From the sequence record NC_134264.1: a DNA stretch of 64,000 bases. The stretch is one strand, 5' to 3'. The stretch is from Escherichia phage Lindwurm. A program made the position numbers and the translations under genes. Shown one piece after another: positions 33,720 through 46,491 of this stretch. Under the pieces are notes generated by a model. It was not told where the DNA came from, made no database searches, and worked only from the letters and a program-made list of their open reading frames with translations. Position 1 is the first letter of the stretch; each line of letters starts with the position of its first letter.

Positions 33720-34490
33720 GCCGATTACGCTGAGTGCAGAATCCCAACCGGAGCGCATTGAATAGAGTCGGTGGGTTAGTTGTAAAACTAGTACACAGGG
33801 GGCGGCAATCCCGGTTAGTGGCTAGAACGTGTAAAATGAGGCGTCTGAAACCTCTCCCCTAAACTCTTCTCTAATTTATAAATAGTGGGGTGTGGAAATC
33901 ACTTATGTAGTAACACTGCCGTACTAGTATAATTGGTATTATCAAGCCGTAACTGGTGGAAGATGTAGGTTCGAATCCTACGGTCGGTAAGAACTGGATA
34001 ACTGGTGCTTTTAATGTAAAAGCTTCCGAGGTTAGTTGCGCACTGCCTAAACCACGCGGTAGTTGGTTCCAGACTAACCAACCAGTCTGCTGAATAGTTT
34101 TATTACGATTTAACTATGTCCAGGCTAAAGAAGAACTTTAGAAGGTATTCTAGGATAGTGAAGTTCTTTCTCCATATCGGAGTAGTTTTTCAAGCTATCC
34201 CCAAAGTGGGAAATGCTGACATGAGAGATGTCACTAATGGTGCACAATAGCACAGGTAATTCGCGATAACTCCTGTTGAGTAGCAGCAAAAGGCGGGAAG
34301 TCATGACCCCAAGCCTAACCGAGTCCTCAATATACCGCAGGACATAACCACTAAGTCACCCTGACTTAAACTGGAAAATAATAGACGTTACCGTATTTTG
34401 TCTTGAAATACTTAATGAGTGAGACTTATGACTCTCCCGGTATCGTCTGTATTTTTAAGAGTTTTTACAAGAGTTCTTAAAAATACTTAA
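33720..34490 (+). ncRNA. structured non-coding leader/RNA region of unknown function
   Basis: about 770 nt without credible ORF, downstream of a promoter; orphan T-arm GTAGG-TTCGAAT-CCTAC at 33965-33981; mutually exclusive hairpins at 34050-34090. Confidence 0.35.
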
Positions 34491-34491
34491 A

Positions 34492-34566
34492 CGGGGTGTA
34501 GTCTAAGGGAGAGGCAGGAGTCTTCTAAATTCCTTTATGCAGGTTCGAATCCTGTCACCTCGGCCA
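34492..34566 (+). tRNA. tRNA-Arg (anticodon UCU)
   Basis: acceptor CGGGGTG/CACCTCG, D-stem GTCT/AGGC, anticodon loop CTTCTAA, T-arm GCAGG-TTCGAAT-CCTGT, encoded CCA. Confidence 0.7.
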
Positions 34567-37297: not shown

Positions 37298-37503
37298 TTT
37301 TTGACACCTCCTAGTATATAGAAAATGTGTGTCTCTTTGATCACTCATCCATAACATATACTTTACACTACCCCAGCGAAAATGTCAAGGGGTCTTTAAA
37401 AATTGCCCCCGGATTTTTAGTGGGGTCACAAATTTTGGTCCTCACTACTTATCTGCTACCCTTAAATGCCCTATGATTTTCCTCTAAAAAGTTAAAAAAT
37501 TTA

Positions 37504-37532
37504 ATTGCTTGAATGCTATATTCTCTGTATAA
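37504..37532 (+). promoter_or_regulatory. early-type promoter
   Basis: TTGCTT-17-TATAAT then CTATAAATTTGAGAGAGG. Confidence 0.6.
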
Positions 37533-37562
37533 TATATCTATAAATTTGAGAGAGGAACCAAA

Positions 37563-38082
37563 TATGAATGTTGATGAGCTAACACAGCACCTCTTATCTA
37601 GAGGATTTGATACAGATAAATATCATTGCTGGTTAAGTACGGAAGGATGGCTAACAGTCCCGTTGTATGACTTCTCTGGGATGTTGAGGGGCTATCAAAC
37701 TTATAATCCTTCTGCTCCAAAAGGTCATGGTAAGTGCCCCTTTGAAGCTAAATACTTTACTTATTCTACTACCCAGTGTGTATGGGGACTAGAAACTCTC
37801 AATGGAGATGAAAAAGTAGTATTGATTGCTGAATCTGTATTTAAGGCAGTTGCGTTACATAACGCTGGTTATCCAGCCCTAGCAATGTTGGGTTCTTCTC
37901 CAGGAAAAGCGTTATTAAAGCAACTGAAATTACTACCTTTTAAATTGATAGCTGTCGGGGACAATGATCCTGCGGGTGAAAAATTTGCTAGAAAATTAAA
38001 CGGCTTTGTTTCTCCTGTAGATGTAGATGAGATGTCTACCGAAAACTTGAAAAATTTTCTTGCTATGAAGCTAAATTTCTAA
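37563..38082 (+). CDS. Toprim-domain protein
   Basis: VVLIAESVFKA ... KLIAVGDNDPAGEKFARKL (conserved Glu plus DxD); ATG 37563. Confidence 0.55.
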
Positions 38083-38088
38083 TATAAT
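38060..38088 (+). promoter_or_regulatory. early-type promoter embedded in 3' end of preceding CDS
   Basis: TTGCTA-17-TATAAT immediately upstream of tRNA-Ser. Confidence 0.5.
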
Positions 38089-38103
38089 ATATCTTATAAA
38101 TTC

Positions 38104-38192
38104 GGAAGAATAGCATAACGGTATTGCAGCAGATTGCTAATCTGTCGGTTTGAAATATAGCCTTGTGGGTTCGATTCCCACTTCTTCCGCCA
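38104..38192 (+). tRNA. tRNA-Ser (anticodon GCU), class II
   Basis: acceptor GGAAGAA/TTCTTCC, anticodon loop TTGCTAA, long variable arm, T-arm GTGGG-TTCGATT-CCCAC, CCA. Confidence 0.75.
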
Positions 38193-38198
38193 GATTTT

Positions 38199-38276
38199 GG
38201 TTCTCAAGCTCATATGGTATGAGCACCCAGCTCATAACTGGAAGGTACGTAGGTTCGAATCCTCGGGGAGCCACCA
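38199..38276 (+). tRNA. tRNA with CAU anticodon (Met/fMet/Ile2)
   Basis: acceptor GGTTCTC/GGGAGCC with G-U pairs, D-arm GCTC-ATATGGTAT-GAGC, anticodon loop CTCATAA; T-stem poorly paired. Confidence 0.55.
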
Positions 38277-38294
38277 ATTAAATAGAGGTCACAA

Positions 38295-38483
38295 ATGGAT
38301 CTATATATAGTTTATGTTGTGTTTATTCAAGATAGAGAATACCCGGATGAATATAAAAAAGGATATAGGTTAGCCAGAGCTACCTCTGAAGCCCAAGCTA
38401 TGGATAAAGTGGCAGATTATATGATTACGGTAGAAAACGTACACTATATCGACTACCTTGAAGCCTCAAAAGTAATTGACTAA
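38295..38483 (+). CDS. hypothetical protein
   Basis: 62 aa. Confidence 0.45.
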   Translation: MDLYIVYVVFIQDREYPDEYKKGYRLARATSEAQAMDKVADYMITVENVHYIDYLEASKVID

Positions 38484-38492
38484 GGAGACTAT

Positions 38493-38678
38493 ATGTCCAA
38501 GTTTCAAGAACTCAAGCAAGAGCTAGAAGAGTGTGCCTGCCCTGAGTGTAGGGGAATTGGTGAAAGTTCTGATGCAGAAGCAGGAGATACTTTTTGCAAT
38601 ATCTGGGTTTGCCCAAATTGCAATGGTACAGGTATTAATCCTAACTGTGGTATTTCCCTAGATATTGAACGAGGATAA
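38493..38678 (+). CDS. hypothetical Cys-rich zinc-ribbon protein
   Basis: CACPECRG...CNIWVCPNCNGTG. Confidence 0.5.
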   Translation: MSKFQELKQELEECACPECRGIGESSDAEAGDTFCNIWVCPNCNGTGINPNCGISLDIERG

Positions 38679-38779
38679 TACCTGTGAAACTAAAAGATTA
38701 CTATATTGGTTGGTTTGTGGGACTAGTAGTAGGATTTTCACTAGGCTATAATATGTATCAACTAATAAACTGATTACAT

Positions 38780-38856
38780 GGGGGTGTAATCGAATTGGCA
38801 TAGGTACTGGACTTAAAATTCAGGTTTTGTGGGTTCGAATCCCACCACCCCTACCA
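38780..38856 (+). tRNA. class I tRNA with UAA anticodon (Leu-decoding by anticodon)
   Basis: acceptor GGGGGTG/CACCCCT, D-stem ATC/GGT, anticodon stem CTGGA/TTCAG loop CTTAAAA, 5-nt variable loop, T-arm GTGGG-TTCGAAT-CCCAC, A73, CCA. Confidence 0.6.
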
Positions 38857-39031
38857 AATTAAGGAAATAAGATGTATAGACATCCACCTCCGCCAACACG
38901 TCGTTCTAGAGAAGTTATTCTCATGGAGTTGACTAAAAACTTCAAGGCAACTCTTGAAGATAGAGATCTAGGCACGGATGAAGACATTGATTTTATTTGT
39001 AGACTATTAAAGATGAAACTGGAGAAACAAC

Positions 39032-39238
39032 ATGGCTAATCCTGAAATTACCGCACAACGTTTCATGCTTAAAGGTATGATTGCTGAGGCGGGTTTAACT
39101 CAAGAGGTTGCAGATTTTCATAAGCAATTTCTTGATATTATAACTCTAGCTAAAGAAACTGGAGAAAAAGAACATGGAGCGGCAATTATGGCTATATCTC
39201 TTATTAGTCTAGACTTGGCTGAAGAATCTGGAGTTTAG
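39032..39238 (+). CDS. hypothetical protein
   Basis: 68 aa. Confidence 0.45.
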   Translation: MANPEITAQRFMLKGMIAEAGLTQEVADFHKQFLDIITLAKETGEKEHGAAIMAISLISLDLAEESGV

Positions 39239-39268
39239 ATCCTCCAAACAGAATTTTTAAAAATGTAC

Positions 39269-39298
39269 TTGCCTTTTGCTTTAAATTTCTGGTATAAT
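39269..39298 (+). promoter_or_regulatory. early-type promoter
   Basis: TTGCCT-18-TATAAT. Confidence 0.5.
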
Positions 39299-39328
39299 AG
39301 TTATATAAATTGATGAAGGAGTTAACGA

Positions 39329-39604
39329 ATGCAAAATCGTGTTATAGCAGCTGGTATTGAAAGTGCAATCTGTAAATCCTGGGAAGGCTGGGAAGGTGAG
39401 ATTGAATGGCTTTATTTCTACGATGTAGAGCTTCTGCCGGAAATTAAAGCTAAATGTGTTGAAGCTGGCATGTCTCCAGATGCAAGAGCTGATATTGATA
39501 TTTCAATGTCTGAACTTAAAGGTCGTGTAATCACTGTTAGTGATGAGGGCGAAGAAGTTTTTGAACTTCCGTTCTCCTTAACTGTCACTCCTAAGTTCGA
39601 CTAA
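39329..39604 (+). CDS. hypothetical protein
   Basis: 91 aa. Confidence 0.5.
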   Translation: MQNRVIAAGIESAICKSWEGWEGEIEWLYFYDVELLPEIKAKCVEAGMSPDARADIDISMSELKGRVITVSDEGEEVFELPFSLTVTPKFD

Positions 39605-39640
39605 CTAATACAGCATTGGGCAAGTTCTTTAAAATTTGAC

Positions 39641-39669
39641 TTGCCCAATACTATAAAACTTGGTATAAT
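39641..39669 (+). promoter_or_regulatory. early-type promoter
   Basis: TTGCCC-17-TATAAT. Confidence 0.55.
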
Positions 39670-39802
39670 ATTTATCTAATTTGGAAAGTTCTTTTTAAGG
39701 TAGTTCTTACTTTAGCAGAGTAAATTTTTGGCAGATGGCCCCCACCATTTTACCGATAACTCCTAGTCAGTGCGGTAACACTGGCTACCTTAAAGAGAAT
39801 TT

Positions 39803-39890
39803 GGGCGTTTATTCCGTAAGTGGTAGCGGAGGGGACTGTAAATCCCTGGTCATTGCGACTCGAGTGGTTCGACTCCATTAACGCCCACCA
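39803..39890 (+). tRNA. tRNA-Tyr (anticodon GUA), class II
   Basis: acceptor GGGCGTT/AACGCCC, anticodon loop CTGTAAA, long variable arm, T-loop TTCGACT, CCA. Confidence 0.7.
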
Positions 39891-39897
39891 ATTTAAT

Positions 39898-39972
39898 GCA
39901 CCTATCGTCTAGCGGTTAGGACACCACTCTTTCACAGTGGGAACACGAGTTCGATCCTCGTTGGGTGTGCCA
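39898..39972 (+). tRNA. tRNA-Glu (anticodon UUC)
   Basis: acceptor GCACCTA/TGGGTGT, anticodon stem CCACT/AGTGG loop CTTTCAC, T-arm ACGAG-TTCGATC-CTCGT, CCA. Confidence 0.7.
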
Positions 39973-39981
39973 ATTAATAAT

Positions 39982-40052
39982 TGGGGTACGCATAGGTTGC
40001 AAATGGGCCTCCAAAACCCATGAAAAGGTTTCGAATACCTTTACCCCTGCCA
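39982..40052 (+). tRNA. tRNA-Trp (anticodon CCA), tentative
   Basis: T-arm AAGGT-TTCGAAT-ACCTT, acceptor 3' TACCCCT + G + CCA, anticodon loop CTCCAAA; 1-72 mismatch and weak D-stem. Confidence 0.5.
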
Positions 40053-40058
40053 AAATTT

Positions 40059-40133
40059 GCACCTTTAGCTGAGATGGATTAGCGCTTGCCTGAAGAGCTT
40101 GAGAGGTTCGTTCGATTCGAACAGGGTGCACCA
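40059..40133 (+). tRNA. tRNA-Phe (anticodon GAA)
   Basis: acceptor GCACCTT/AGGGTGC, D-arm GCTG...TAGC, anticodon loop CTGAAGA, T-arm GTTCG-TTCGATT-CGAAC, CCA; anticodon stem has two U-U mismatches. Confidence 0.6.
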
Positions 40134-40150
40134 ATTTGAGGGAGCTGCTG

Positions 40151-40423
40151 ATGCATCCTGAAAACTTCTTTATTTACTGCGCTGATAAGTCGCTGAAACG
40201 TAGAATTAACAAAGTCTATCATTATCGTGCTAGTCAACAGCCTTATGTATATGCTTTTGATGATGATCACATTCCACTAGAACAATTATCTTGTGATTAC
40301 ATGATATTGAAGAACTTTGACGAGACAAAGATCTCAAGCGTTCATAATCGACAGAATCCATTAACGTGGAAATATAAGAAGAAAAAGAAAGGCATCAAAT
40401 TTTTAAAAAATGTAGTTGCTTAG
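40151..40423 (+). CDS. hypothetical protein
   Basis: ATG 40151 with GAGGGAG RBS (track ORF begins inside tRNA-Phe). Confidence 0.45.
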   Translation: MHPENFFIYCADKSLKRRINKVYHYRASQQPYVYAFDDDHIPLEQLSCDYMILKNFDETKISSVHNRQNPLTWKYKKKKKGIKFLKNVVA

Positions 40424-40444
40424 TTTCCAAAAGTTCTGTATAAT
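40416..40444 (+). promoter_or_regulatory. early-type promoter
   Basis: TTGCTT-17-TATAAT. Confidence 0.6.
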
Positions 40445-40492
40445 AATTACATAAATTGAACTGGAGAAGCAACATGATAGAATAAGATAAAT

Positions 40493-40568
40493 CGACCGTT
40501 GGCTGAATGGCTTAGGCGAAGGATTGCAAATCCTTTTTATGTGAGTTCAAATCTCATGCGGTCGTCCA
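40493..40568 (+). tRNA. tRNA-Cys (anticodon GCA)
   Basis: acceptor CGACCGT/GCGGTCG, anticodon stem AAGGA/TCCTT loop TTGCAAA, T-arm GTGAG-TTCAAAT-CTCAT, CCA. Confidence 0.7.
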
Positions 40569-40576
40569 AATTTTTA

Positions 40577-40659
40577 GGGTCGTTAGCCAAGTGGTTTGGC
40601 GGCGGATTGTTAATCCGTGTCGAAAGACAACGTAGGTTCGAATCCTACACGGCCCGCCA
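40577..40659 (+). tRNA. tRNA-Asn (anticodon GUU) with 13-nt extra arm
   Basis: acceptor GGGTCGT/ACGGCCC, D-arm GCCA-AGTGGTT-TGGC, anticodon stem GCGGA/TCCGT loop TTGTTAA, variable region GTCGAAAGACAAC, T-arm GTAGG-TTCGAAT-CCTAC, CCA. Confidence 0.65.
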
Positions 40660-40761
40660 AATTCTGTGTAGAGTTAAGTAAACCGGTAGCCAACCAGCTA
40701 TCATTGCTGATATCGAATTCAGCCACAGATACCGTTTTCATTAATAACTGAGGAAACAAGC

Positions 40762-40947
40762 ATGTCCAAGAATGTAATTGCGCAGCTAGAAGTTCATCGT
40801 GATAGCACTATCAACAATATTGAAGTTGAGAAGAAATACATCGAAGAACTTAAACATGATATACTGGTAAGTCTCAACCGTCTTAACGTACGAAAAGAGT
40901 TTCTTAAGGAACTTAATGCAGCTATTGAAAAACTCAAAGCTGAGTAA
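40762..40947 (+). CDS. hypothetical protein
   Basis: 61 aa. Confidence 0.45.
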   Translation: MSKNVIAQLEVHRDSTINNIEVEKKYIEELKHDILVSLNRLNVRKEFLKELNAAIEKLKAE

Positions 40948-40956
40948 ATGAATTAT

Positions 40957-41033
40957 GCGACCGGGGCTGGCTTGGTAATGGTACTCCCCTGTCACGGGAG
41001 GGAATGTGGGTTCAAATCCCATCGGTCGCGCCA
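40957..41033 (+). tRNA. tRNA-Asp (anticodon GUC)
   Basis: acceptor GCGACCG/CGGTCGC, anticodon stem CTCCC/GGGAG loop CTGTCAC, T-arm GTGGG-TTCAAAT-CCCAT, CCA. Confidence 0.75.
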
Positions 41034-41059
41034 AACTAAACTAGCACGAGAAATATGCT

Positions 41060-41407
41060 ATGATTAATGCTAAAGAAGAATTGTTACTTGCCCTAAAGAA
41101 TACTAATTCTGAAGTTAAGTGTATTAAGATAGAATTCGGTTATTATGGTGACAAAGAAGTTTGGGTATTGCCCGTAGGTTATACAGAAAAAGATATTGAA
41201 GATTTTCTAAATAATCTAGACTTTAAATATGATTCTGGTTATGGTGGGCAATTGCTTTATGGTAACGTGTGGTTTACTGATGGAACTTGGTTAGAACGTG
41301 GTGAATACGACGGTTCTGAGTGGTGGGAATATAAGGCTACGCCAGCAATCCCAGAAGAATGCCGAACAATTAATGGTGAAGTAGATCGTACTTTACTATT
41401 AAATTAA
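41060..41407 (+). CDS. hypothetical protein
   Basis: 115 aa. Confidence 0.5.
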   Translation: MINAKEELLLALKNTNSEVKCIKIEFGYYGDKEVWVLPVGYTEKDIEDFLNNLDFKYDSGYGGQLLYGNVWFTDGTWLERGEYDGSEWWEYKATPAIPEECRTINGEVDRTLLLN

Positions 41408-41527
41408 CAAAATTTCAGTGCAGAACACGGAGCTAGCAATTCGGAAGTGCTGACTCATGATAAGCTGCCTATGTACTTGCGAAGCGGTCGTGTCCAAGAC
41501 TCGGACTCTTGCACTGAAAACAATCAA

Positions 41528-41650
41528 ACATTCTAGCGTGGTTGATGGGGAAACCAGCTTGGCGAGGGCAGAAGCTCGTTCGATTCGAGTGAAAGAATGG
41601 TTCTCGTAAGTCCGCACAAGTGATAACAGGTTCGAGTCCTGTCTAGAATG
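41528..41650 (+). ncRNA. tRNA-like element with large internal insertion (non-canonical)
   Basis: 7-bp acceptor ATTCTAG(41529-35)/CTAGAAT(41642-48), D-arm GGTT-GATGGGGA-AACC, two T-arm-like hairpins (GCTCG-TTCGATT-CGAGT and ACAGG-TTCGAGT-CCTGT), about 121 nt, no CCA. Confidence 0.4.
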
Positions 41651-41798
41651 ACACTATAAAGTTTACTTATTATGTAGGTTCCGGTAGACCGGCGGGTCTA
41701 TTCTGGCATTTAAGAGAGGTCTCGCAAGCCTCTTTGTCAGCAGTGGGGTTGGTAGCCTCCAGGTGGCCTACACAATAAGTAAATTTATTAAAAATTCA

Positions 41799-41827
41799 TT
41801 TGCTATTCTGCTTAATTCTCTGTATAA
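41799..41827 (+). promoter_or_regulatory. early-type promoter
   Basis: TTGCTA-17-TATAAT. Confidence 0.6.
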
Positions 41828-41860
41828 TATATCTTATAAAGTGAAGAGAAGGAAAGCTAA

Positions 41861-42058
41861 ATGAAGAAAGTTTTATTACTATCCGTATTCCTACTTACTG
41901 GTTGTTTTAAATTTGACTCAACCATTAATAAAGAGTATGAATTTGCTAAAAATTTCTGTGGCGGAGAGAGTAATATAAAGAATTTCTACATATATAGTAC
42001 GATTCCTAGTACCGTTTATTGTGTAGACGGACGAATTATTAATATTCCTCCACAATAA
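41861..42058 (+). CDS. putative small lipoprotein
   Basis: signal peptide with lipobox LLTGC. Confidence 0.5.
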   Translation: MKKVLLLSVFLLTGCFKFDSTINKEYEFAKNFCGGESNIKNFYIYSTIPSTVYCVDGRIINIPPQ

Positions 42059-42067
42059 AAGAATTAA

Positions 42068-42143
42068 CAGTGCGTAGCGCAGTTGGTAGCGTGGGAGCCT
42101 TGGATGCTTCGGGTCGCAGGTTCGAGTCCTGCCGCACTGACCA
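42068..42143 (+). tRNA. tRNA-Pro (anticodon UGG)
   Basis: acceptor CAGTGCG/CGCACTG, D-arm GCGC-AGTTGGTA-GCGT, anticodon loop CTTGGAT, T-arm GCAGG-TTCGAGT-CCTGC, CCA. Confidence 0.75.
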
Positions 42144-42149
42144 AACAAT

Positions 42150-42227
42150 TGCGGGTTAGATCTCTGGTAGAGATCACTAGTCTCATAAGCTAGAAAGAGG
42201 TAGGTTCGATTCCTGCACCCGCTTCCA
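42150..42227 (+). tRNA. tRNA with CAU anticodon (1-72 mismatch, initiator-like?)
   Basis: acceptor TGCGGGT/ACCCGCT with T1-T72 mismatch, D-arm GATC...GATC, anticodon stem CTAGT/GCTAG loop CTCATAA, T-loop TTCGATT, CCA. Confidence 0.6.
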
Positions 42228-42247
42228 TTTTAATAGAGGATTTCGAA

Positions 42248-42415
42248 ATGAAAGTATTTCGATTAGTAGTAAGTGACAAACGTTCAGGTAAGAATACATC
42301 AAAATCCTTACTTGCTCATTACGGTAAAAATTGGGATGAAGTAATGGTAGAGTTTAGTACTAATCACCCTTACTTAAAAGTCCACTCTATTAAAGAAGTG
42401 TATAATGGTTACTAA
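42248..42415 (+). CDS. hypothetical small protein (55 aa)
   Basis: ATG 42248 with AGAGGA RBS; fits exactly between two tRNAs; below 60-aa track cutoff. Confidence 0.45.
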   Translation: MKVFRLVVSDKRSGKNTSKSLLAHYGKNWDEVMVEFSTNHPYLKVHSIKEVYNGY

Positions 42416-42416
42416 T

Positions 42417-42495
42417 AGATCGCTAGCTCAATAGGTTTAGTAGCATCCGACTTTTAATCGGAAGGTTCTGGGTTCGAGTCCCAGGCGATCTACCA
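42417..42495 (+). tRNA. tRNA-Lys (anticodon UUU)
   Basis: acceptor AGATCGC/GCGATCT, anticodon stem TCCGA/TCGGA loop CTTTTAA, T-arm CTGGG-TTCGAGT-CCCAG, CCA. Confidence 0.7.
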
Positions 42496-42513
42496 ATTTC
42501 AAGAAAAATGCAG

Positions 42514-42542
42514 TTGCTTAATGCTTAATTTCTTGTTATAAT
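42514..42542 (+). promoter_or_regulatory. early-type promoter
   Basis: TTGCTT-17-TATAAT. Confidence 0.6.
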
Positions 42543-42559
42543 ATTTATATAAATTGATG

Positions 42560-42870
42560 CGAAAATAGCTGCCTAGATATCAGGTGTATGACGTCTACAC
42601 TAGCAGAGCTACCGAAAAAGAGATCCTCAGGATAAACGTCGTAGCAAAATTAGTCTGATATCCATCAATTTAGTTCACTAAGGTATTAGCTTGACCTAGG
42701 ACTGGCTGCCAAAAAGCACGATCCCTACGATTCGGGAGAAGTTCTAGATTAGTCCACTAGATTCAGCGGCAACTGAATAGTGTATCGGGTTTGCGAGATG
42801 ACGCGGTTCCTTCCGCTCGAAGCGAAGGTGCTGTAGTTACGCCGAGCTAATAGCCTTAGTAAACTAAAGA
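42560..42870 (+). ncRNA. structured non-coding region of unknown function
   Basis: about 310 nt, promoter-proximal, no credible ORF; hairpins e.g. CCTTCCGCT-CGA-AGCGAAGG at 42808-42830. Confidence 0.3.
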
Positions 42871-42874
42871 ATTT

Positions 42875-42948
42875 GGGGATATAGTTTAATGGTAGAACAT
42901 CTGCTTTGCACGCAGAAGACGAGGGTTCAACTCCCTCTTTCTCCACCA
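42875..42948 (+). tRNA. tRNA-Ala (anticodon UGC)
   Basis: acceptor GGGGATA/TTTCTCC, D-arm GTTT-AATGGTA-GAAC, anticodon stem TCTGC/GCAGA loop TTTGCAC, T-arm GAGGG-TTCAACT-CCCTC, CCA. Confidence 0.7.
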
Positions 42949-42953
42949 AATTT

Positions 42954-43038
42954 GGGGCTATGCTGGAACTGGTAGACAATACGGCCTTAGATTCCGTAGC
43001 TTAAATGCGTGGGAGTTCGAGTCTCCCTAGCCCCACCA
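42954..43038 (+). tRNA. tRNA-Leu (anticodon UAG), class II
   Basis: acceptor GGGGCTA/TAGCCCC, anticodon loop CTTAGAT, 13-nt variable arm, T-arm GGGAG-TTCGAGT-CTCCC, A73, CCA. Confidence 0.7.
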
Positions 43039-43054
43039 ACTTATAGGGTAATGT

Positions 43055-43639
43055 ATGCAGTTTGTACCAATAAAAGATGCACCAGGGTATTTAGTAAATG
43101 AAACAGGGGATGTGTTATCTACATTTACTAATAAAATTTTATCAAGATATATAGTTGATGGATACCCTGCTGTAAAATTACAGATAAATGGTAAGCAAAC
43201 TTCGGTACTTATACACCGAATTATTTCTCATGTATTTGGGGACTTATATAATCTATTTGACCCTGAATTAGAAGTAGATCACAAGGATAGAGATAGGCTG
43301 AATCTATCTAAAGATAATCTTCAAGTTTTGTCAAAAATAGAACATCAGAAGAAAACTAATAAAGATAATGGATGGTCTGATAGTAGAGTACCTTGCCCCT
43401 TATGTGGAAATCTAATGCTTCAGAGATCAGTAACATGTACAAATTGTAAGCCAAAACCTACAGGAAAGTTAATAAAACCAGAATTGTCCTTAGAAGACAT
43501 AACTGAAAAGGTTTTATTAATGGGGTGGGTTAAGGCAGCTAAAGATCTAGAAGTATCAGAGTCCACTTTACGTAGACGATATACTAAACTAACCGGATTA
43601 AGCCCAAAAGTATTAACAGAACAACGGAAAAGCAAATAG
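43055..43639 (+). CDS. HNH homing endonuclease
   Basis: EVDHKDRDRLNLSKDNLQVLSKIEHQKK HNH motif; C-terminal Cys cluster and HTH-like tail; sits inside tRNA island. Confidence 0.75.
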   Translation: MQFVPIKDAPGYLVNETGDVLSTFTNKILSRYIVDGYPAVKLQINGKQTSVLIHRIISHVFGDLYNLFDPELEVDHKDRDRLNLSKDNLQVLSKIEHQKKTNKDNGWSDSRVPCPLCGNLMLQRSVTCTNCKPKPTGKLIKPELSLEDITEKVLLMGWVKAAKDLEVSESTLRRRYTKLTGLSPKVLTEQRKSK

Positions 43640-43719
43640 ACTGGTGACTAAACCCGATTGGAAATCGGTTGAGTGGTAGCAATACCGCCTTATGGGTTCA
43701 ACTCCCATCTTTTCCGCCA
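43626..43719 (+). tRNA. tRNA-Ser (anticodon GGA), class II
   Basis: acceptor GGAAAAG/CTTTTCC, anticodon stem CCGA/TCGG loop TTGGAAA, long variable arm, T-arm ATGGG-TTCAACT-CCCAT, CCA; 5' end overlaps HNH stop by about 14 nt. Confidence 0.55.
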
Positions 43720-43731
43720 AACAATTTATAC

Positions 43732-43826
43732 GGTAGGTCAATCCAACGGCTGGCGCTGGACTCCGACTTGAAATCGGTTGATCGTAGTGATACGGTGTAA
43801 GGGTTCGATCCCCTTACCTACCTCCA
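43732..43826 (+). tRNA. tRNA-Ser (anticodon UGA), class II
   Basis: acceptor GGTAGGT/ACCTACC, anticodon stem CCGA/TCGG loop CTTGAAA, long variable arm, T-arm AAGGG-TTCGATC-CCCTT, CCA. Confidence 0.6.
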
Positions 43827-44192
43827 AATCTTGAAGTATGCCGGAATCGGTAGACGGGGCTGCCTAAAAGGTTTATAGAGAACATCCACTCTCTACAACA
43901 TACCTCATAAAGCGGCTGAGATAAATGGTCTATCTCGTGAAGGTTCAAGTCCTTCTGCTTCTTGATACACCTATGGCTCAAAGTGTAACGGTGCTATTTG
44001 ATACTCTTAGTAAGACTTTCCCGACATGCGTTCGGGAGTAAGCTGCTAAGGCTAGAGTAGAAGAGTTTCGGAGAGCCGCCACAATTGAAAATTCGTACTC
44101 GTCTTGAGCTGCGTGCAATAGGAGATAACTTGATTAGTATTCTAGAACATGCTAATTGAGGAAGGTTTCGCTAACCCTGCGAGTTTTCAATT
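43827..44192 (+). ncRNA. structured non-coding region with orphan T-arm and 14-bp inverted repeat
   Basis: T-arm-like GAAGG-TTCAAGT-CCTTC at 43939-43955 with no matching acceptor; stem-loop CCCGA-CATGCGT-TCGGG; IR GCCACAATTGAAAA (44078-44091) / TTTTCAATTGTGGC (44184-44197). Confidence 0.35.
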
Positions 44193-44269
44193 GTGGCTAT
44201 ATCATAATTGGTTAATGATCCTGATTGTGAATCAGGCCTATGTGGATTCGAATTCCACTAGCCACCCCA
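44193..44269 (+). tRNA. tRNA-His (anticodon GUG)
   Basis: acceptor GTGGCTA/TAGCCAC, D-arm TCAT...ATGA, anticodon stem CCTGA/TCAGG loop TTGTGAA, T-arm GTGGA-TTCGAAT-TCCAC, C73, CCA. Confidence 0.75.
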
Positions 44270-44484
44270 AATTAACTTAAATAGGGAATAAAATATAGCT
44301 GATTTCTGCAAACAATGCTCCGTTGATATGTGGGGTAGAGATACTGGTGATCTTTCTGGTTTGATTACAGAAGCTGAGGTCAAAGAAGGTTATGGTGCAG
44401 TTGTGATTTGCGAAGGATGCGGAGTTATTCGAGTAGATCATGAAGGCAAACGTTTAGAAGAACAGGAAAACTTAGGAGAAACAA

Positions 44485-44721
44485 ATGAGTAATGCTTTAA
44501 TTAGTGAAATTATGTTAACACGTCTTGCAGAACTGCAAACTCTTCGAGATGAATCTCAGAATAACTTAGCGTACCATAAACAAATGGTAGATACTCTTAC
44601 TACTCGTATTGATACTTACGAGCGTGATATTGCAGCATTACAAGCTCTATTCTCTGTACCAGCACCAGATACGTTAGAACAGCCTGCTGTTTCTCAGCCA
44701 GTAGAAACAGCATCTAGTTAA
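44485..44721 (+). CDS. hypothetical protein
   Basis: 78 aa with GGAG RBS. Confidence 0.5.
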   Translation: MSNALISEIMLTRLAELQTLRDESQNNLAYHKQMVDTLTTRIDTYERDIAALQALFSVPAPDTLEQPAVSQPVETASS

Positions 44722-44730
44722 TAGCATTCT

Positions 44731-44806
44731 TGGGATGTAGATCAATTGGCAGATCGTCGGCCTCTGACTCCGAAGGTTCCACGTTCGATCCGTGGCATCC
44801 CAGCCA
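44731..44806 (+). tRNA. tRNA-Gln (anticodon CUG)
   Basis: acceptor TGGGATG/CATCCCA, D-arm GATC-AATTGGCA-GATC, anticodon loop CTCTGAC, T-arm CCACG-TTCGATC-CGTGG, CCA. Confidence 0.7.
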
Positions 44807-44812
44807 AACAAT

Positions 44813-44888
44813 TGGAGAGTAGTGTAACGGTTAGCACAACGGCCTTTGACTCCGTTAATGGTAGGTTCGATTCCTCCTTCTCCAGCCA
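44813..44888 (+). tRNA. tRNA-Gln (anticodon UUG)
   Basis: acceptor TGGAGAG/TTCTCCA, D-arm GTGT-AACGGTTA-GCAC, anticodon loop CTTTGAC, T-loop TTCGATT, CCA. Confidence 0.7.
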
Positions 44889-44896
44889 AGTAATAA

Positions 44897-44972
44897 GCGG
44901 TTAAGCACACGGGTTGTGTCGCAGGCCTTCCAAGCCTAGCTGAGTAGGGTTCGATTCCCTCTAGCCGCTCCA
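44897..44972 (+). tRNA. tRNA-Gly (anticodon UCC)
   Basis: acceptor GCGGTTA/TAGCCGC, anticodon stem AGGC/GCCT loop CTTCCAA, T-loop TTCGATT, CCA. Confidence 0.65.
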
Positions 44973-44988
44973 ACTTTAAGGAAACATT

Positions 44989-45240
44989 ATGCACGTTTTT
45001 GAGTTTCGTAATAAAAGTACCGATAAACGAGTTATTGTTATTGGAGAAACATACCGAGCATACGAACAAACTGACGGATCTGTTATACTGAATGATGAGA
45101 AAGGGGGTTTTAGCTTTTATCCAGAAGAACCTTATGAAGAGTTTCGAAAACAATTTAACCTAGACTGGAGAAAGCATTTAAACACTGTTGCTTCATCTGT
45201 AGTATTGCCAACTACCAGTACTGTGCTCTCTAATGGCTGA
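44989..45240 (+). CDS. hypothetical protein
   Basis: 83 aa. Confidence 0.5.
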   Translation: MHVFEFRNKSTDKRVIVIGETYRAYEQTDGSVILNDEKGGFSFYPEEPYEEFRKQFNLDWRKHLNTVASSVVLPTTSTVLSNG

Positions 45241-45397
45241 TAACCTAAAAGTCAAGATCGATAAACAAAAGAAACGTGTAGAAGTAGAGATTGGTGAAGA
45301 ACGTGTAGCCTTCACCTTTGAATTTCTACAACAAATGGCAATGACAGTTATGACTGATAAGTCTCCTGTTATTGAAAAAGAAATCCCGTTGAAATAA
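45233..45397 (+). CDS. hypothetical small protein (54 aa)
   Basis: ATG 45233 overlaps upstream stop (ATGGCTGA); lysine-rich; below track cutoff. Confidence 0.4.
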   Translation: MADNLKVKIDKQKKRVEVEIGEERVAFTFEFLQQMAMTVMTDKSPVIEKEIPLK

Positions 45398-45405
45398 CGG
45401 GTTCT

Positions 45406-45492
45406 GCTGGGTTGGCAGAATGGTTGAATGCACCTGATTTGTAATCAGGAGGAGTAATCCCACTGCAGGTTCGAATCCTGTGCCCAGCACCA
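45406..45492 (+). tRNA. tRNA-Thr (anticodon UGU) with 15-nt extra arm
   Basis: acceptor GCTGGGT/GCCCAGC, D-stem GCA/TGC, anticodon stem CCTGA/TCAGG loop TTTGTAA, variable region AGGAGTAATCCCACT (GGA-GTAA-TCC hairpin), T-arm GCAGG-TTCGAAT-CCTGT, CCA. Confidence 0.65.
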
Positions 45493-45674
45493 ATTTAAGG
45501 ACTAGTATGTTTAAACTACTAGTAGTTATCTGGTATAGTCAATCAAACAGAGCTAATACCTCCCACGTTATAGACTTTAATACTAAAAACGAAGCTGAAA
45601 AAGCATACGCTAATTTAATAGAACGTAATAAAGAATCTCGTAGTATAGTTTATGAAGTGACTAAACTCTATTAA
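45480..45674 (+). CDS. hypothetical protein
   Basis: 64 aa; 5' end overlaps tRNA-Thr 3' end. Confidence 0.4.
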   Translation: MPSTNLRTSMFKLLVVIWYSQSNRANTSHVIDFNTKNEAEKAYANLIERNKESRSIVYEVTKLY

Positions 45675-45682
45675 AAATTCAT

Positions 45683-45711
45683 TTGCTTTCTCTCTTATTT
45701 CTTGTTATAAT
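45683..45711 (+). promoter_or_regulatory. early-type promoter
   Basis: TTGCTT-17-TATAAT. Confidence 0.6.
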
Positions 45712-45741
45712 ATTTATATAAATTAATGAGAGGGAAACCAA

Positions 45742-46035
45742 ATGAAACGTTATCTTTCTGTTGTGTTCCAAACTGGTGGTCAACGCTATACCTATGAATT
45801 TCCTAGCTCTTGGAAGATCAAAGAAGGTGATCAAGTAGTAGTGTTAACACCGCGTGAGGGTTTCAAGGTAGTAACGGTTAAGCAAGTATTTCCAAAAGAG
45901 CATGAACCAGCTAAAGGCATTCGCTATAAGATGATTCATGGTGTAGTTCGTCAAGTACCACGAGCGGAAGTCGAAATCAAAGTAGATAAAGATGGTAAAC
46001 TTAAATATACCTCTTGCTTAGACGAGTTGCTATAA
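45742..46035 (+). CDS. hypothetical protein
   Basis: 97 aa. Confidence 0.55.
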   Translation: MKRYLSVVFQTGGQRYTYEFPSSWKIKEGDQVVVLTPREGFKVVTVKQVFPKEHEPAKGIRYKMIHGVVRQVPRAEVEIKVDKDGKLKYTSCLDELL

Positions 46036-46241
46036 TGAGGATTACTTTCACAGAAAAGATCATGAGTAATGGTGTTATGATCATTACCGCATGGGATGGT
46101 AGTCAGTGGTGTAGTGTTTCAGGTATTAAGCCTGAAAAACAAACACTAGAAAATATCTCAAAGATTAAGCGAATAATGGCAGAACGTGCACGACTTCCAG
46201 GTGCGCCTAGAAATGGCAAACGTTCTGCTGTAAAATGTTAA
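46014..46241 (+). CDS. hypothetical protein
   Basis: 75 aa. Confidence 0.45.
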   Translation: MLRRVAIMRITFTEKIMSNGVMIITAWDGSQWCSVSGIKPEKQTLENISKIKRIMAERARLPGAPRNGKRSAVKC

Positions 46242-46242
46242 T

Positions 46243-46319
46243 ACTTCGGTAGCTTAGCGATCTAAAGCACTCGGCTGATAACCGAGAGATCGGGGGTTTA
46301 AATCCCTCCCGGAGTACCA
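46243..46319 (+). tRNA. tRNA-Ile (anticodon GAU)
   Basis: acceptor ACTTCGG/CCGGAGT, D-arm GCTT-AGCGATCT-AAGC, anticodon stem CTCGG/CCGAG loop CTGATAA, T-arm GGGGG-TTTAAAT-CCCTC, CCA. Confidence 0.7.
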
Positions 46320-46415
46320 AATTTAGGAATTAAGACTATGCGTCCAGGAAAGTTTAAAAAAGCTAATTGGACTAAAGAGTATAAAGAATACTTACTTAGT
46401 CTAGTAAAACATAAT

Positions 46416-46491
46416 AGTTAGTTGGCAGAGCGGTTATGCACCTCCTTCATACGGAGCGATTACAGTGGTTCAAATCCACTACTAACTACCA
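46416..46491 (+). tRNA. tRNA with CAU anticodon (third copy)
   Basis: acceptor AGTTAGT/ACTAACT, anticodon stem CCTCC/GGAGC loop TTCATAC, T-arm AGTGG-TTCAAAT-CCACT, CCA. Confidence 0.65.

What the first reader, a model, noticed from the sequence alone, without database searches (positions are those of the whole stretch)
38104..46491. Large tRNA island interleaved with promoters, small ORFs and a homing endonuclease
About 25 tRNA genes covering most amino acids (Ser x3, CAU x3, Gln x2, Leu, Tyr, Glu, Trp, Phe, Cys, Asn, Asp, Pro, Lys, Ala, His, Gly, Thr, Ile, plus Arg at 34492) sit in several short operons, each behind a copy of the early promoter. No tRNA-Val was found. A lytic phage carrying a near-complete tRNA set is consistent with codon supplementation, and plausibly with resistance to host tRNA-cleaving defences.
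Basis: partly seen in the sequence, partly recalled or inferred. Interest (0 to 1): 0.5.

Follow-up and report, generated by a model that had tools for sequence, protein, structure and literature searches.

The report
T5-type phage tRNA gene island
This is the well-known tRNA gene cluster of a T5-like coliphage: 24 tRNA genes transcribed from T5 early promoters, which supply codons rare in the host and, in T5 itself, blunt tRNA-cutting defences, so the finding is real but ordinary.

Summary
Window 38104-46491 holds 24 same-strand tRNA genes. ARAGORN finds 20 at default settings and Rfam finds 19 above threshold. Three more appear at relaxed thresholds. tRNA-Trp is recognised only because it is 70/71 identical to T5's annotated gene. 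tRNA-Arg lies at 34492. There are two Leu genes, not one. tRNA-Val is truly absent, through a deletion relative to T5.

The interval also holds seven copies of the T5 early promoter, about 20 small ORFs in phage families of unknown function, and one free-standing HNH endonuclease (T5 hegC orthologue).

The DNA is 97.8% identical to Escherichia phage HK6 and syntenic with T5's annotated tRNA region. Codon supplementation is supported here: the codons most enriched over E. coli (CTA, AGA, GGA, ATA, CCA, TTA, ACA) all have a cognate phage tRNA. The anti-defence role is published for T5 and SP15 (PARIS, retron-Eco7). However, this phage's Lys, Thr and Asn alleles keep the host-like AriB site that T5's alleles have lost.

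Verdict: already known, low interest. One side observation may be new. Individual tRNA genes occur as deeply divergent alleles that are swapped gene by gene among T5-like phages.

The parts
33917..33990 (+). Conserved tRNA-like element outside the island. It has no CCA, two acceptor mismatches and an aberrant anticodon loop. It lies inside the homologue of T5 'RNAX'.
   Evidence: Rfam tRNA 29.9 bits against a gathering score of 29. ARAGORN finds it only at -ps95. Present in 23/23 related islands at mean 98% identity.
34492..34566 (+). tRNA-Arg(UCU), 3.5 kb upstream of the island
   Evidence: 100% identical to T5 tRNA-Arg.
37513..38082 (+). Toprim-domain ORF (189 aa) abutting the island, behind the promoter copy at 37490-37555. 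Homologue of T5.076 and SP15 E0157_075.
   Evidence: Pfam Toprim_2 and phrog_849. 98% identical to SP15 E0157_075. That gene is probably the 'ORF75' reported to evade retrons Eco2 and Eco7 (PMC11555353); the match of numbering is my inference.
38044..38109 (+). T5 early-promoter copy (equivalent to T5 P15b), TTGCTA-17-TATAAT at 38060-38088. It drives Ser(GCU), the CAU tRNA, two small ORFs and Leu(UAA).
   Evidence: Syntenic with the promoter annotated in T5.
38104..38276 (+). tRNA-Ser(GCU) 38104-38192 and CAU tRNA 38199-38276 (annotated Ile2 in T5)
   Evidence: Both 100% identical to T5.
38295..38678 (+). Two small ORFs: 62 aa (phrog_10617) and 61 aa (phrog_6060, 'anti-termination protein Q-like'). 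They occupy the site where T5 has the hegA HNH gene.
38780..38856 (+). tRNA-Leu(UAA), 77 nt with a short 5-nt variable loop. Absent from T5.
   Evidence: Identical in 18 related islands.
38872..39604 (+). Small ORFs of 55, 68 and 91 aa, with promoter copy 39254-39319 (equivalent to P15c) before the last one
39625..39687 (+). Weaker promoter copy (equivalent to T5 P14a), TTGCCC-17-TATAAT with TG, upstream of the Tyr-Glu-Trp-Phe group
   Evidence: (E = 4e-4)
39803..40133 (+). tRNA-Tyr(GUA) 39803-39890, Glu(UUC) 39898-39972, Trp(CCA)-like 39982-40052, Phe(GAA) 40059-40133
   Evidence: Trp is recognised only by 99% identity to the T5 annotation. Tyr is 81% and Glu 58% identical to T5, while Trp and Phe are 99%.
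40151..40423 (+). Small ORF, 90 aa (phrog_5876)
40399..40466 (+). Promoter copy (equivalent to T5 P14b)
40493..41033 (+). tRNA-Cys(GCA) 40493-40568; Asn(GUU) 40577-40659 (83 nt, 12-nt variable loop); homologue of T5 'RNA3' 40662-40733; ORF 61 aa (DUF7337) 40762-40947; tRNA-Asp(GUC) 40957-41033
41060..41774 (+). ORF 115 aa (phrog_3972) at 41060-41407, then homologues of T5 stable RNAs RNA2 (41529-41653) and RNAIV (41672-41774)
41783..41852 (+). Promoter copy (equivalent to T5 P13a), TTGCTA-17-TATAAT
41861..42495 (+). ORF 65 aa (phrog_6073) 41861-42058; tRNA-Pro(UGG) 42068-42143; CAU tRNA 42150-42227 (annotated fMet in T5; U1-U72 mismatch); ORF 55 aa 42248-42415; tRNA-Lys(UUU) 42417-42495
   Evidence: The Lys anticodon arm reads U36AAUCG41.
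42498..42563 (+). Promoter copy (equivalent to T5 P13b), directly after Lys. T5's tRNA-Val(UAC) gene is missing between them.
42564..42855 (+). Non-coding stretch: a ~100-nt segment absent from T5 and HK6 (42564-42661), then the homologue of T5 stable RNA 'RNA2H' (42684-42855)
42875..43038 (+). tRNA-Ala(UGC) 42875-42948 and tRNA-Leu(UAG) 42954-43038
   Evidence: Ala is 72% and Leu 100% identical to T5 although they lie 5 nt apart.
43055..43639 (+). Free-standing HNH endonuclease, 194 aa, orthologue of T5 hegC. Its 3' end overlaps tRNA-Ser(GGA) by 14 nt.
   Evidence: Pfam HNH_3 at 26 bits (cut-off 24.8) and phrog_59 at E = 6e-23. 96% amino-acid identity to T5 hegC. Present in only 3 of 26 T5-like islands examined.
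43626..43826 (+). tRNA-Ser(GGA) 43626-43719 and tRNA-Ser(UGA) 43732-43826
43837..44191 (+). Homologues of T5 stable RNAs RNA1, RNAI and RNAIII (function unknown)
   Evidence: 87-99% identical to T5
44193..44269 (+). tRNA-His(GUG)
44328..44721 (+). Small ORFs of 54 aa (phrog_2210) and 78 aa (phrog_27262), at the site where T5 has hegD
44731..44972 (+). tRNA-Gln(CUG) 44731-44806, Gln(UUG) 44813-44888, Gly(UCC) 44897-44972
44989..45397 (+). Small ORFs of 83 aa and 54 aa (phrog_5598, phrog_5919)
45406..45492 (+). tRNA-Thr(UGU), 87 nt with an extra variable arm. The anticodon arm reads U36AAUCA41, identical to E. coli thrU.
45507..46241 (+). ORF 55 aa; promoter copy 45667-45734 (equivalent to T5 P11); ORFs of 97 aa and 68 aa
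46243..46491 (+). tRNA-Ile(GAU) 46243-46319 and tRNA-Met(CAU) 46416-46491

Best explanation
This is the tRNA-rich region of a T5-like phage (Tequintavirus, HK6-like lineage). Host sigma-70 RNA polymerase transcribes it early in infection from seven copies of the strong T5 early promoter. The promoter has an A-tract, TTGCTw, a 17-18 nt spacer, TATAATA, and a conserved ATAAATTGAGAG start region. The transcripts are short and polycistronic, mixing tRNAs, small ORFs and non-coding stable RNAs. Host enzymes are inferred to process out 24 CCA-encoding tRNAs.

The tRNAs do two things.

(1) They supplement decoding of A/U-ending codons that the 40%-GC phage uses far more than E. coli does: CUA, AGA, GGA, AUA, CCA, UUA and ACA. 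This is shown here statistically.

(2) They keep translation running when host defence nucleases deplete particular host tRNAs. They do so either by oversupply from strong promoters (Tyr against retron-Eco7) or by being poor substrates (T5 Lys, Thr and Asn against PARIS AriB). This is shown experimentally for T5 and SP15 and only inferred for this phage.

The free-standing HNH endonuclease (hegC orthologue) is a selfish homing element. Together with ordinary recombination between co-infecting relatives, it probably contributes to the mosaic gene content of the island. That last step is inference.
For: Identity of the region:
- 97.8% identity over 97% of the interval to Escherichia phage HK6; 633 phage records match, nearly all T5-like.
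- Collinear with T5's annotated tRNA region, including named promoters P15b to P11, hegC and the stable RNAs.

tRNAs:
- ARAGORN and Rfam recover 23 of 24, and all carry CCA.
- 14 are at least 95% identical to T5 genes.

Promoters:
- A profile built from nine copies finds 27 matches in the window at E < 1e-3, seven of them in the island, all co-oriented with the tRNAs.
- The consensus equals that published for T5-like phages, TTGCTw / TATAATA with 17-18 nt spacing (PMC3326045).

Codon test: (p = 0.003 and p = 9e-5).

Defence role (literature):
- PMC11464382: T5 tRNA-Lys is not cleaved by AriB and rescues infection.
- PMC12409363: Lys, Thr and Asn together are sufficient.
- PMC11555353: the ~8-kb tRNA-rich region is deletable; tRNA-Tyr under its strong phage promoter rescues infection from retron-Eco7.

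HNH endonuclease: (presence/absence polymorphism, 3 of 26 islands).
Against: - No expression, processing or aminoacylation data exist for this phage.
- Trp-like 39982-40052 is non-canonical and no predictor detects it.
- The GTA codon is enriched 1.9x and heavily used (26 per 1000), yet tRNA-Val is missing. Supplementation is therefore not a strict rule.
- For two-codon amino acids the phage carries G34 tRNAs whose Watson-Crick codons (NNC) are depleted in the phage.
- This phage's Lys, Thr and Asn alleles keep the U39-C40 AriB site that T5's resistant alleles have lost. The PARIS part of the mechanism may not apply here.
Confidence: 0.88

Rival explanations
1. Translational adaptation only. 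The island exists solely to match the tRNA supply to the AT-rich codon usage of the phage. Any defence evasion is incidental.
For: Strong match between the phage-enriched codons and the anticodons carried. The choice of U34 isoacceptors is the one expected for an AT-rich genome. This is the classical view cited in PMC3326045.
Against: - Deleting the region in T5 and SP15 leaves the phages viable in the laboratory but sensitises them to PARIS and to retrons Eco2 and Eco7 (PMC11464382, PMC11555353).
- The island also carries tRNAs for codons that are not enriched (GAA, AAA, NNC codons).
- The heavily used GTA codon lacks a phage tRNA here.
Confidence: 0.2
2. Primarily a counter-defence arsenal. 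Each tRNA is a replaceable cartridge that either outnumbers or resists a particular host tRNA nuclease. Selection by such nucleases maintains several old allele classes per isoacceptor, which recombination shuffles gene by gene.
For: - Among 24 T5-like islands, Ala, Tyr and Leu(UAG) have 5 allele classes; Pro and Glu have 4; Lys, Gly and Gln(UUG) have 3. Classes differ by 30-45%.
- Backbone segments stay at 85-98% identity.
- Divergent genes sit 5-9 nt from genes that are 99-100% identical.
- All 24 islands have different allele combinations, and adjacent genes show all four allele combinations.
- tRNA-Tyr, a published target of retron-Eco7 and of Septu (PMC11555353, PMC13096335), is among the most polymorphic, and its variable arm differs between classes.
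Against: - The polymorphism does not track the known targets cleanly. Lys (mean identity 0.89) is less variable than Ala, Leu(UAG) or Pro, for which no nuclease is known.
- ORFs in the island are mosaic too.
- Only 24 non-independent genomes were sampled.
- No functional data exist on any allele except T5's and SP15's.
Confidence: 0.3
3. Pool maintenance after host shut-off. T5-like phages destroy host DNA early, so host tRNA genes can no longer be transcribed. A near-complete phage-encoded set keeps the tRNA pool up through the long lytic cycle.
For: The near-complete coverage (19 of 20 amino acids, including tRNAs for common codons such as GAA and AAA) fits general replenishment better than pure rare-codon supplementation. 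T5 tRNAs are reported to be expressed from about 5 min until lysis (PMC3326045). Host DNA degradation by T5 is established knowledge.
Against: - tRNAs are stable on the time scale of one infection.
- Mutants deleted for the region grow normally on defence-free laboratory hosts (PMC11464382, PMC11555353).
- Nothing in the sequence tests this idea.
Confidence: 0.15
4. Prediction artefact or decayed relics. Most of the 'tRNAs' are pseudogenes or chance cloverleaves.
For: A few members are marginal: the Trp-like gene, the tRNA-like element at 33917, and tRNA-like remnants inside the stable-RNA homologues.
Against: 20 genes at ARAGORN default and 19 above the Rfam gathering score, with E-values down to 7e-14. 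All are co-oriented, all encode CCA, and they are conserved across hundreds of phages.
Confidence: 0.01

Closest known systems
Bacteriophage T5 tRNA gene region, also called the 'tRNA-rich region' (NC_005859 about 28.0-37.3 kb, plus tRNA-Arg at 40.8 kb)
   Same: - Same position in the early region and the same gene order.
- Same promoter family (P15b to P11).
- Same stable-RNA segments (RNA1, I, III, 2, 2H, 3, IV, X).
- The hegC HNH endonuclease is present.
- 14 tRNAs are at least 95% identical.
   Different: - No tRNA-Val.
- An extra tRNA-Leu(UAA) with two small ORFs where T5 has hegA.
- No hegD, so Gln(CUG) is intact rather than a pseudogene.
- No T5.063 or T5.069.
- Ten tRNAs (Tyr, Glu, Asn, Pro, Lys, Ala, Ser-UGA, Gln x2, Thr) are different alleles, 34-81% identical.
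- Lys, Thr and Asn keep the host-like U39-C40.
Escherichia phage HK6 (PP724615) and other HK6/SP15-like Tequintaviruses
   Same: 97.8% nucleotide identity over 97% of the interval. Same tRNA allele set, same HNH gene (100% amino-acid identity), and also no Val(UAC).
   Different: - HK6 has an extra tRNA-Lys(CUU) after Asp and a 140-nt insert between Cys and Asn.
- The window has a ~100-nt insert after P13b.
- Several tRNA labels in the HK6 record are wrong: Ala(UGC) is labelled Val, the CAU tRNA is labelled Lys, and Gly is labelled Met.
Phage T4/T6 tRNA gene cluster with the SegB homing endonuclease
   Same: A cluster of phage tRNA genes with an embedded free-standing homing endonuclease. The tRNAs are used against tRNA-cleaving defences (Septu cleaves tRNA-Tyr). 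The endonuclease promotes inheritance or amplification of the region (PMC2330249, PMC13096335).
   Different: - T4 has 8 tRNAs in two sub-clusters; this island has 24 in about eight transcription units.
- SegB is GIY-YIG; this enzyme is HNH.
- The phage families are unrelated.
- No amplification is seen in the window.
Nuclease-resistant phage tRNA variants (T5 tRNA-Lys/Thr/Asn against PARIS AriB; mycobacteriophage anticodon-loop variants)
   Same: Same isoacceptors at the same loci, expressed from the same strong promoters.
   Different: The determinant mapped in T5, substitution of U39 (and of position 41) at the AriB site U36AAUC|A41, is absent. The window has Lys UAAUCG, Thr UAAUCA and Asn UAAUCC, the last two identical to E. 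coli (PMC12409363 section 3d).

Membership tests
T5-type tRNA-rich region (Tequintavirus / Demerecviridae) | Nucleotide homology and synteny with the T5 tRNA region | tested here: met
   collinear blocks at 86-100% identity. 97.8% identity to HK6.
T5-type tRNA-rich region (Tequintavirus / Demerecviridae) | Twenty or more co-oriented tRNA genes interleaved with small ORFs | tested here: met
   24 tRNAs and about 20 ORFs on the + strand.
T5-type tRNA-rich region (Tequintavirus / Demerecviridae) | T5 early promoters (TTGCTw, 17-18 nt, TATAATA) heading the transcription units | tested here: met
   Seven copies in the interval, at the positions of T5 P15b, P15c, P14a, P14b, P13a, P13b and P11. The consensus is as in PMC3326045. 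A generic sigma-70 scan alone shows no enrichment (35 found against 38 expected).
T5-type tRNA-rich region (Tequintavirus / Demerecviridae) | Dispensable in the laboratory; loss sensitises the phage to PARIS and to retrons Eco2 and Eco7 | not testable with these tools
   Known for T5 and SP15 only (PMC11464382, PMC11555353).
Canonical tRNA genes | Cloverleaf recognised by covariance model or ARAGORN, a 7-nt anticodon loop, and a 3' CCA | tested here: met
   Met for 23 of 24. The Trp-like gene at 39982-40052 is inconclusive: it has a 3-bp D-stem with a 5-nt loop and a C31-A39 mismatch, and no tool calls it.
Canonical tRNA genes | Identity of the three CAU tRNAs (initiator, elongator Met, or lysidine-modified Ile2) | tested here: inconclusive
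   The names come from the T5 annotation. 42150-42227 has a 1-72 mismatch (U-U) but lacks the three G-C pairs of the anticodon stem typical of bacterial initiators. The modification state cannot be read from DNA.
Free-standing HNH homing endonuclease | HNH catalytic motif | tested here: met
   Pfam HNH_3 at 26.0 bits (cut-off 24.8), plus phrog_59, phrog_959 and other HNH families.
Free-standing HNH homing endonuclease | Presence/absence polymorphism at a fixed intergenic site among close relatives | tested here: met
   An orthologue (at least 95% identical) is found only in the window, HK6 and T5 among 26 T5-like islands.
Free-standing HNH homing endonuclease | Site-specific cleavage of endonuclease-free relatives and biased inheritance | not testable with these tools
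   [quoted passage not shown] 2004, which I know only as cited in PMC2330249 and PMC3326045. Which of them corresponds to hegC was not established here.
AriB (PARIS)-resistant phage tRNA variants | Substitution at U39 and/or position 41 of the cleavage site U36AAUC|A41 | tested here: not met
   Window: Lys UAAUCG (only position 41 differs), Thr UAAUCA and Asn UAAUCC, the last two equal to E. coli. T5: Lys UAAACC, Thr UAAGCA, Asn UAAGUU. Distal determinants also matter (PMC12409363), so sensitivity is not proven.
AriB (PARIS)-resistant phage tRNA variants | Not cleaved by AriB; rescues infection in PARIS+ cells | not testable with these tools
   Needs cleavage and plating assays.

The most novel reading that the evidence does not exclude
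The tRNA island of T5-like phages may be a combinatorial cassette array. Individual tRNA genes of 74-95 bp exist in the population as two to five ancient allele classes that are only 55-70% identical. These are exchanged gene by gene within a backbone that is 90-100% identical, so every genome carries a different combination.

Two further points would follow. The diversity would be maintained by balancing or diversifying selection from host tRNA-targeting nucleases. And T5's fully 'PARIS-proof' Lys/Thr/Asn combination would be the exception rather than the rule: only T5 among the 24 islands sampled has non-U39 at all three, and this window's phage has host-like sites at all three.

The pattern itself is shown here. 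The selective cause and its novelty are not. I found no description of it in the searchable literature, but that search is far from exhaustive.
Probability: 0.3. Interest if true: 0.5.

Novelty: already known. Interest (0 to 1): 0.15.

Why it matters
As stated, the finding only re-identifies a textbook feature of T5-like phages, so it matters little on its own. Its practical value is a correct inventory for this genome:
- 24 tRNAs plus Arg, and no Val.
- One HNH endonuclease.
- Seven promoters.
- A homologue of the SP15 retron-evasion ORF next door.

It also carries a caution. Anti-defence properties measured for T5's tRNAs should not be transferred to relatives by name, because the alleles differ by 20-40% and lack T5's mapped resistance substitutions.

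If the gene-by-gene allele shuffling proves to be selection-driven, T5-like islands would be a natural library for mapping the specificity of tRNA-targeting defence nucleases.

Tried and rejected
1. Known nuclease targets as the most polymorphic tRNAs. I tested whether Lys, Thr, Asn and Tyr are the most variable across 24 islands. This is only partly so. Tyr ranks second, Asn and Thr are mid-table, and Lys is lower. Ala, Leu(UAG) and Pro are as variable or more so. I do not claim an association.

2. HK6's annotated tRNA-Val. I checked whether it means the window lost Val recently. The HK6 feature is really tRNA-Ala(UGC), identical to the window's gene, so HK6 also lacks Val.

3. Independent detection of tRNA-Trp. 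ARAGORN down to -ps85 and Rfam at E<=10 find nothing. The minimum-energy fold is a cloverleaf but no better than shuffles (z = -0.96). I keep it only as 'homologue of T5's annotated tRNA-Trp'.

4. The tRNA-like element at 33917 as the missing Val. Its anticodon loop is aberrant (ACU, with A at position 33), its stem has 3 bp, and it has no CCA. Rejected as a functional Val tRNA.

5. A known RNA family for the stable-RNA homologues. Rfam has none at E<=10. Folding z-scores are only -1.4 and -1.9.

6. Generic sigma-70 scan. It shows no enrichment. Only the family-specific profile separates the real copies.

7. Distant homologues of ORF115. Loci L026-L036 carry no tRNA island, so they were not used.

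8. Literature searches for a prior description of tRNA allele cassettes in T5-like phages returned nothing relevant.

Full report
WHAT IS THERE

ARAGORN at default settings finds 21 tRNA genes in the 64-kb window. All are on the + strand and all lie between 34492 and 46491; 20 fall inside the reported interval. Rfam gives 21 tRNA matches at or above the gathering score. Of these, 19 are in the interval, one is tRNA-Arg, and one is a marginal element at 33918-33989.

Relaxed searches add three genes:
- A CAU tRNA at 38199-38276.
- tRNA-Ser(UGA). Its correct span is 43732-43826, which gives a perfect GGTAGGT/ACCTACC acceptor stem.
- tRNA-Gly(UCC) at 44897-44972.

It is 70/71 identical to the tRNA-Trp annotated in phage T5. 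It folds into a cloverleaf with a 3-bp D-stem, but no better than shuffled sequence (z = -0.96).

The interval therefore holds 24 tRNA genes: Ser x3, CAU x3, Gln x2, Leu x2, and one each of Tyr, Glu, Trp, Phe, Cys, Asn, Asp, Pro, Lys, Ala, His, Gly, Thr and Ile. All encode the 3' CCA. tRNA-Arg(UCU) sits at 34492.

tRNA-Val is truly absent. T5's Val(UAC) has no match in the window. In T5 it lies between Lys and promoter P13b, whereas here Lys (ends 42495) abuts the P13b copy at 42498-42563.

WHOSE IT IS

The interval is 97.8% identical over 97% of its length to Escherichia phage HK6. It matches 633 phage records, essentially all T5-like Demerecviridae. The upstream 5 kb behaves the same way. 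It is collinear with the richly annotated T5 record NC_005859. That record names the tRNAs, promoters P15b to P11, the HNH genes hegA, hegC and hegD, and eight 'stable RNAs of unknown function'.

PROMOTERS

Nine ~70-nt stretches that cross-matched several T5 promoters align into one family: AAAAATT..TTGCTw, 17-18 nt, TATAATA..ATAAATTGAGAG. A profile built from them finds 27 matches in the window at E < 1e-3.

Seven lie in the interval, all on the + strand, at 38044, 39254, 39625 (weak), 40399, 41783, 42498 and 45667. These are the positions of T5's P15b, P15c, P14a, P14b, P13a, P13b and P11.

A generic sigma-70 consensus scan is not enriched (35 found against 38 expected), so only the family profile is informative. 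The consensus is the one published for T5-like phages (PMC3326045). 'Several short operons each behind a copy of the early promoter' is correct.

PROTEINS

ORF 43055-43639 (194 aa) matches Pfam HNH_3 above its cut-off and several PHROG HNH families. It is 96% identical to T5 hegC and overlaps tRNA-Ser(GGA) by 14 nt, as in T5. Among 26 T5-like islands, an orthologue is present only in the window, HK6 and T5. That presence/absence pattern is typical of a free-standing homing endonuclease. The window lacks hegA and hegD.

About 20 small ORFs (54-115 aa) all match PHROG families, and nearly all are of unknown function.

Just upstream, ORF 37513-38082 (Toprim domain) is 98% identical to SP15 E0157_075. 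That gene is probably the 'ORF75' shown to evade retrons Eco2 and Eco7 (PMC11555353). The match between the paper's numbering and the locus tag is my inference.

FUNCTION, TEST 1: CODONS

I took 82 long non-overlapping ORFs of the window (15,776 codons) and 60 annotated E. coli K-12 genes (14,835 codons).

The codons with the highest phage/host RSCU ratio are CTA 7.8, AGA 6.1, GGA 3.4, AGG 3.2, ATA 2.5, CCA 2.4, TTA 2.4, CCT 2.0 and ACA 2.0. Seven of these nine are the Watson-Crick codons of island tRNAs: Leu-UAG, Arg-UCU, Gly-UCC, Ile2-CAU, Pro-UGG, Leu-UAA and Thr-UGU.

Mann-Whitney p = 0.003 for all cognate codons of amino acids with three or more codons. For the U34/k2C tRNAs p = 9e-5.

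There are exceptions. GTA is enriched 1.9x and heavily used, yet it has no phage tRNA here. The G34 tRNAs of two-codon amino acids match codons that are depleted in the phage.

FUNCTION, TEST 2: DEFENCE EVASION

The literature on the homologous region is direct.
- The region is an ~8-kb deletable segment. Losing it sensitises T5 and SP15 to PARIS and to retrons Eco2 and Eco7 (PMC11464382, PMC11555353).
- T5's Lys is uncleavable. U39->A abolishes cleavage and A41->C reduces it.
- T5's Lys, Thr and Asn together are sufficient to neutralise PARIS (PMC12409363).
- tRNA-Tyr rescues infection from retron-Eco7 mainly by abundance from its strong phage promoter. Even E. coli tRNA-Tyr works under that promoter (PMC11555353).

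This window, however, carries different alleles. Against T5, 14 tRNAs are at least 95% identical. The others are far lower: Tyr 81%, Ala 72%, Lys 71%, Ser(UGA) 70%, Pro 68%, Asn 67%, Gln(UUG) 64%, Thr 60% and Glu 58%. Gln(CUG) is unrelated to T5's pseudogene.

Using real E. coli lysT, thrU and asnT sequences, positions 36-41 compare as follows:

| tRNA | E. coli | This window | T5 |
|---|---|---|---|
| Lys(UUU) | UAAUCA | UAAUCG | UAAACC |
| Thr(UGU) | UAAUCA | UAAUCA | UAAGCA |
| Asn(GUU) | UAAUCC | UAAUCC | UAAGUU |

T5's mapped resistance substitution at position 39 is therefore absent from all three here. Distal determinants also matter (PMC12409363), so this does not prove sensitivity. 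It does mean that resistance cannot be assumed. The Tyr oversupply mechanism should apply to any functional allele behind the 39625 promoter.

SIDE ANALYSIS

I fetched 23 T5-like islands from IMG/VR (L003-L025; L015 is T5 itself) and ran ARAGORN on each. Clustering each isoacceptor at 85% identity gives these numbers of allele classes:
- Five classes: Ala, Tyr, Leu(UAG).
- Four: Pro, Glu.
- Three: Lys, Gly, Gln(UUG).
- Two: Ser(UGA), Asn, Thr, Gln(CUG) and others.
- One (monomorphic): His, Phe, Leu(UAA), the CAU tRNA annotated Ile2, the last Met, Val and the 77-nt Trp.

Classes differ by 30-45%. Backbone segments in the same genomes stay at 85-98% identity. One caveat is that those segments were retrieved by BLAST, which favours similar copies.

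The replacements follow gene boundaries. Window against T5:
- Ala is 68% identical, yet lies 5 nt from Leu(UAG) at 100% and 20 nt from RNA2H at 98%.
- Glu is 53% identical, 9 nt from Trp at 99%.
- Gln(UUG) is 60% identical, 8 nt from Gly at 99%.

All 24 islands have different allele-class combinations, and adjacent genes show all four allele combinations.

Only T5 combines non-U39 alleles at Lys, Thr and Asn in this sample.

I tested whether the known nuclease targets are the most polymorphic. The result is mixed: Tyr yes, Lys no. I therefore present the pattern as an observation and its cause as unproven.

Val(UAC) is missing in 9 of the 24 islands. HK6 also lacks it, because its annotated 'tRNA-Val' is actually Ala(UGC).

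VERDICT

The feature is the long-known T5 tRNA region in an HK6-like Tequintavirus, so it is already known and of low interest.

The points worth keeping are the allele-level caveat about PARIS and the gene-by-gene allele shuffling across T5-like phages. I could not find the latter described, but I have only sampled it.

Noticed in passing
window 39803-45492 compared with L003-L025 (IMG/VR T5-like islands) and L002 (T5): Individual tRNA genes occur as 2-5 deeply divergent allele classes (55-70% identity) swapped along gene boundaries in a 90-100% identical backbone. All 24 islands examined carry a different combination.
   Followed up: partly
window 42417-42495 (Lys), 45406-45492 (Thr), 40577-40659 (Asn): All three PARIS-target isoacceptors keep the host-like AriB site U36AAUC. 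T5's experimentally resistant alleles have A39 or G39. In the 24-island sample only T5 has non-U39 at all three.
   Followed up: yes
window 37513-38082: The Toprim-domain ORF next to the island is 98% identical to SP15 E0157_075. That gene is probably the 'ORF75' reported to evade retrons Eco2 and Eco7, with mechanism unknown (PMC11555353).
   Followed up: partly
window 33865-34491, 40662-40733, 41529-41774, 42684-42855, 43837-44191: These are homologues of T5's annotated 'stable RNAs with unknown functions' (RNAX, RNA3, RNA2, RNAIV, RNA2H, RNA1, RNAI, RNAIII). The three tested across relatives (RNA2/IV, RNA2H, RNAI/III) are as conserved as the coding genes, at about 97% mean identity. No Rfam family matches. 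Predicted folds have terminal helices but modest z-scores of -1.4 and -1.9.
   Followed up: partly
window 33917-33990: A tRNA-like element with no CCA, an aberrant anticodon loop and Rfam tRNA 29.9 bits is conserved at 98% in all 23 relatives. It lies inside the RNAX homologue. Database records label it variously as tRNA-Ser or tRNA-OTHER.
   Followed up: partly
window 45406-45492, 38780-38856, 40577-40659: Three tRNAs have unusual architecture. tRNA-Thr(UGU) is 87 nt with an extra variable arm. tRNA-Leu(UAA) is only 77 nt with a 5-nt variable loop, so it lacks the long arm typical of bacterial tRNA-Leu. tRNA-Asn has a 12-nt variable loop.
   Followed up: no
window 42564-42661: A ~100-nt non-coding segment just downstream of promoter P13b is absent from T5 and HK6. 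It is present at 95-100% identity in 83 phage records and is almost never annotated.
   Followed up: partly
L017 about 8416-8492 (IMGVR_UViG_2974654585 = Escherichia phage VEc33, MN316588): The 77-nt tRNA-Trp allele carries anticodon CUA instead of CCA, making it an amber-suppressor candidate. It occurs in only this one phage among 279 records with that allele. It could be a real suppressor or a sequencing error.
   Followed up: partly
L001 (HK6, PP724615): locus 10175-10248, 5195-5272, 12195-12273: The deposited HK6 annotation mislabels tRNAs. Ala(UGC) is called Val, the CAU tRNA is called Lys, and Gly(UCC) is called Met. Leu(UAG), both Ser genes after it and the HNH ORF are not annotated.
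   Followed up: yes
L014, tRNA-Glu (94 nt): One relative has a tRNA-Glu with an internal 19-nt tandem duplication of the T-arm region, and is probably a damaged gene.
   Followed up: no
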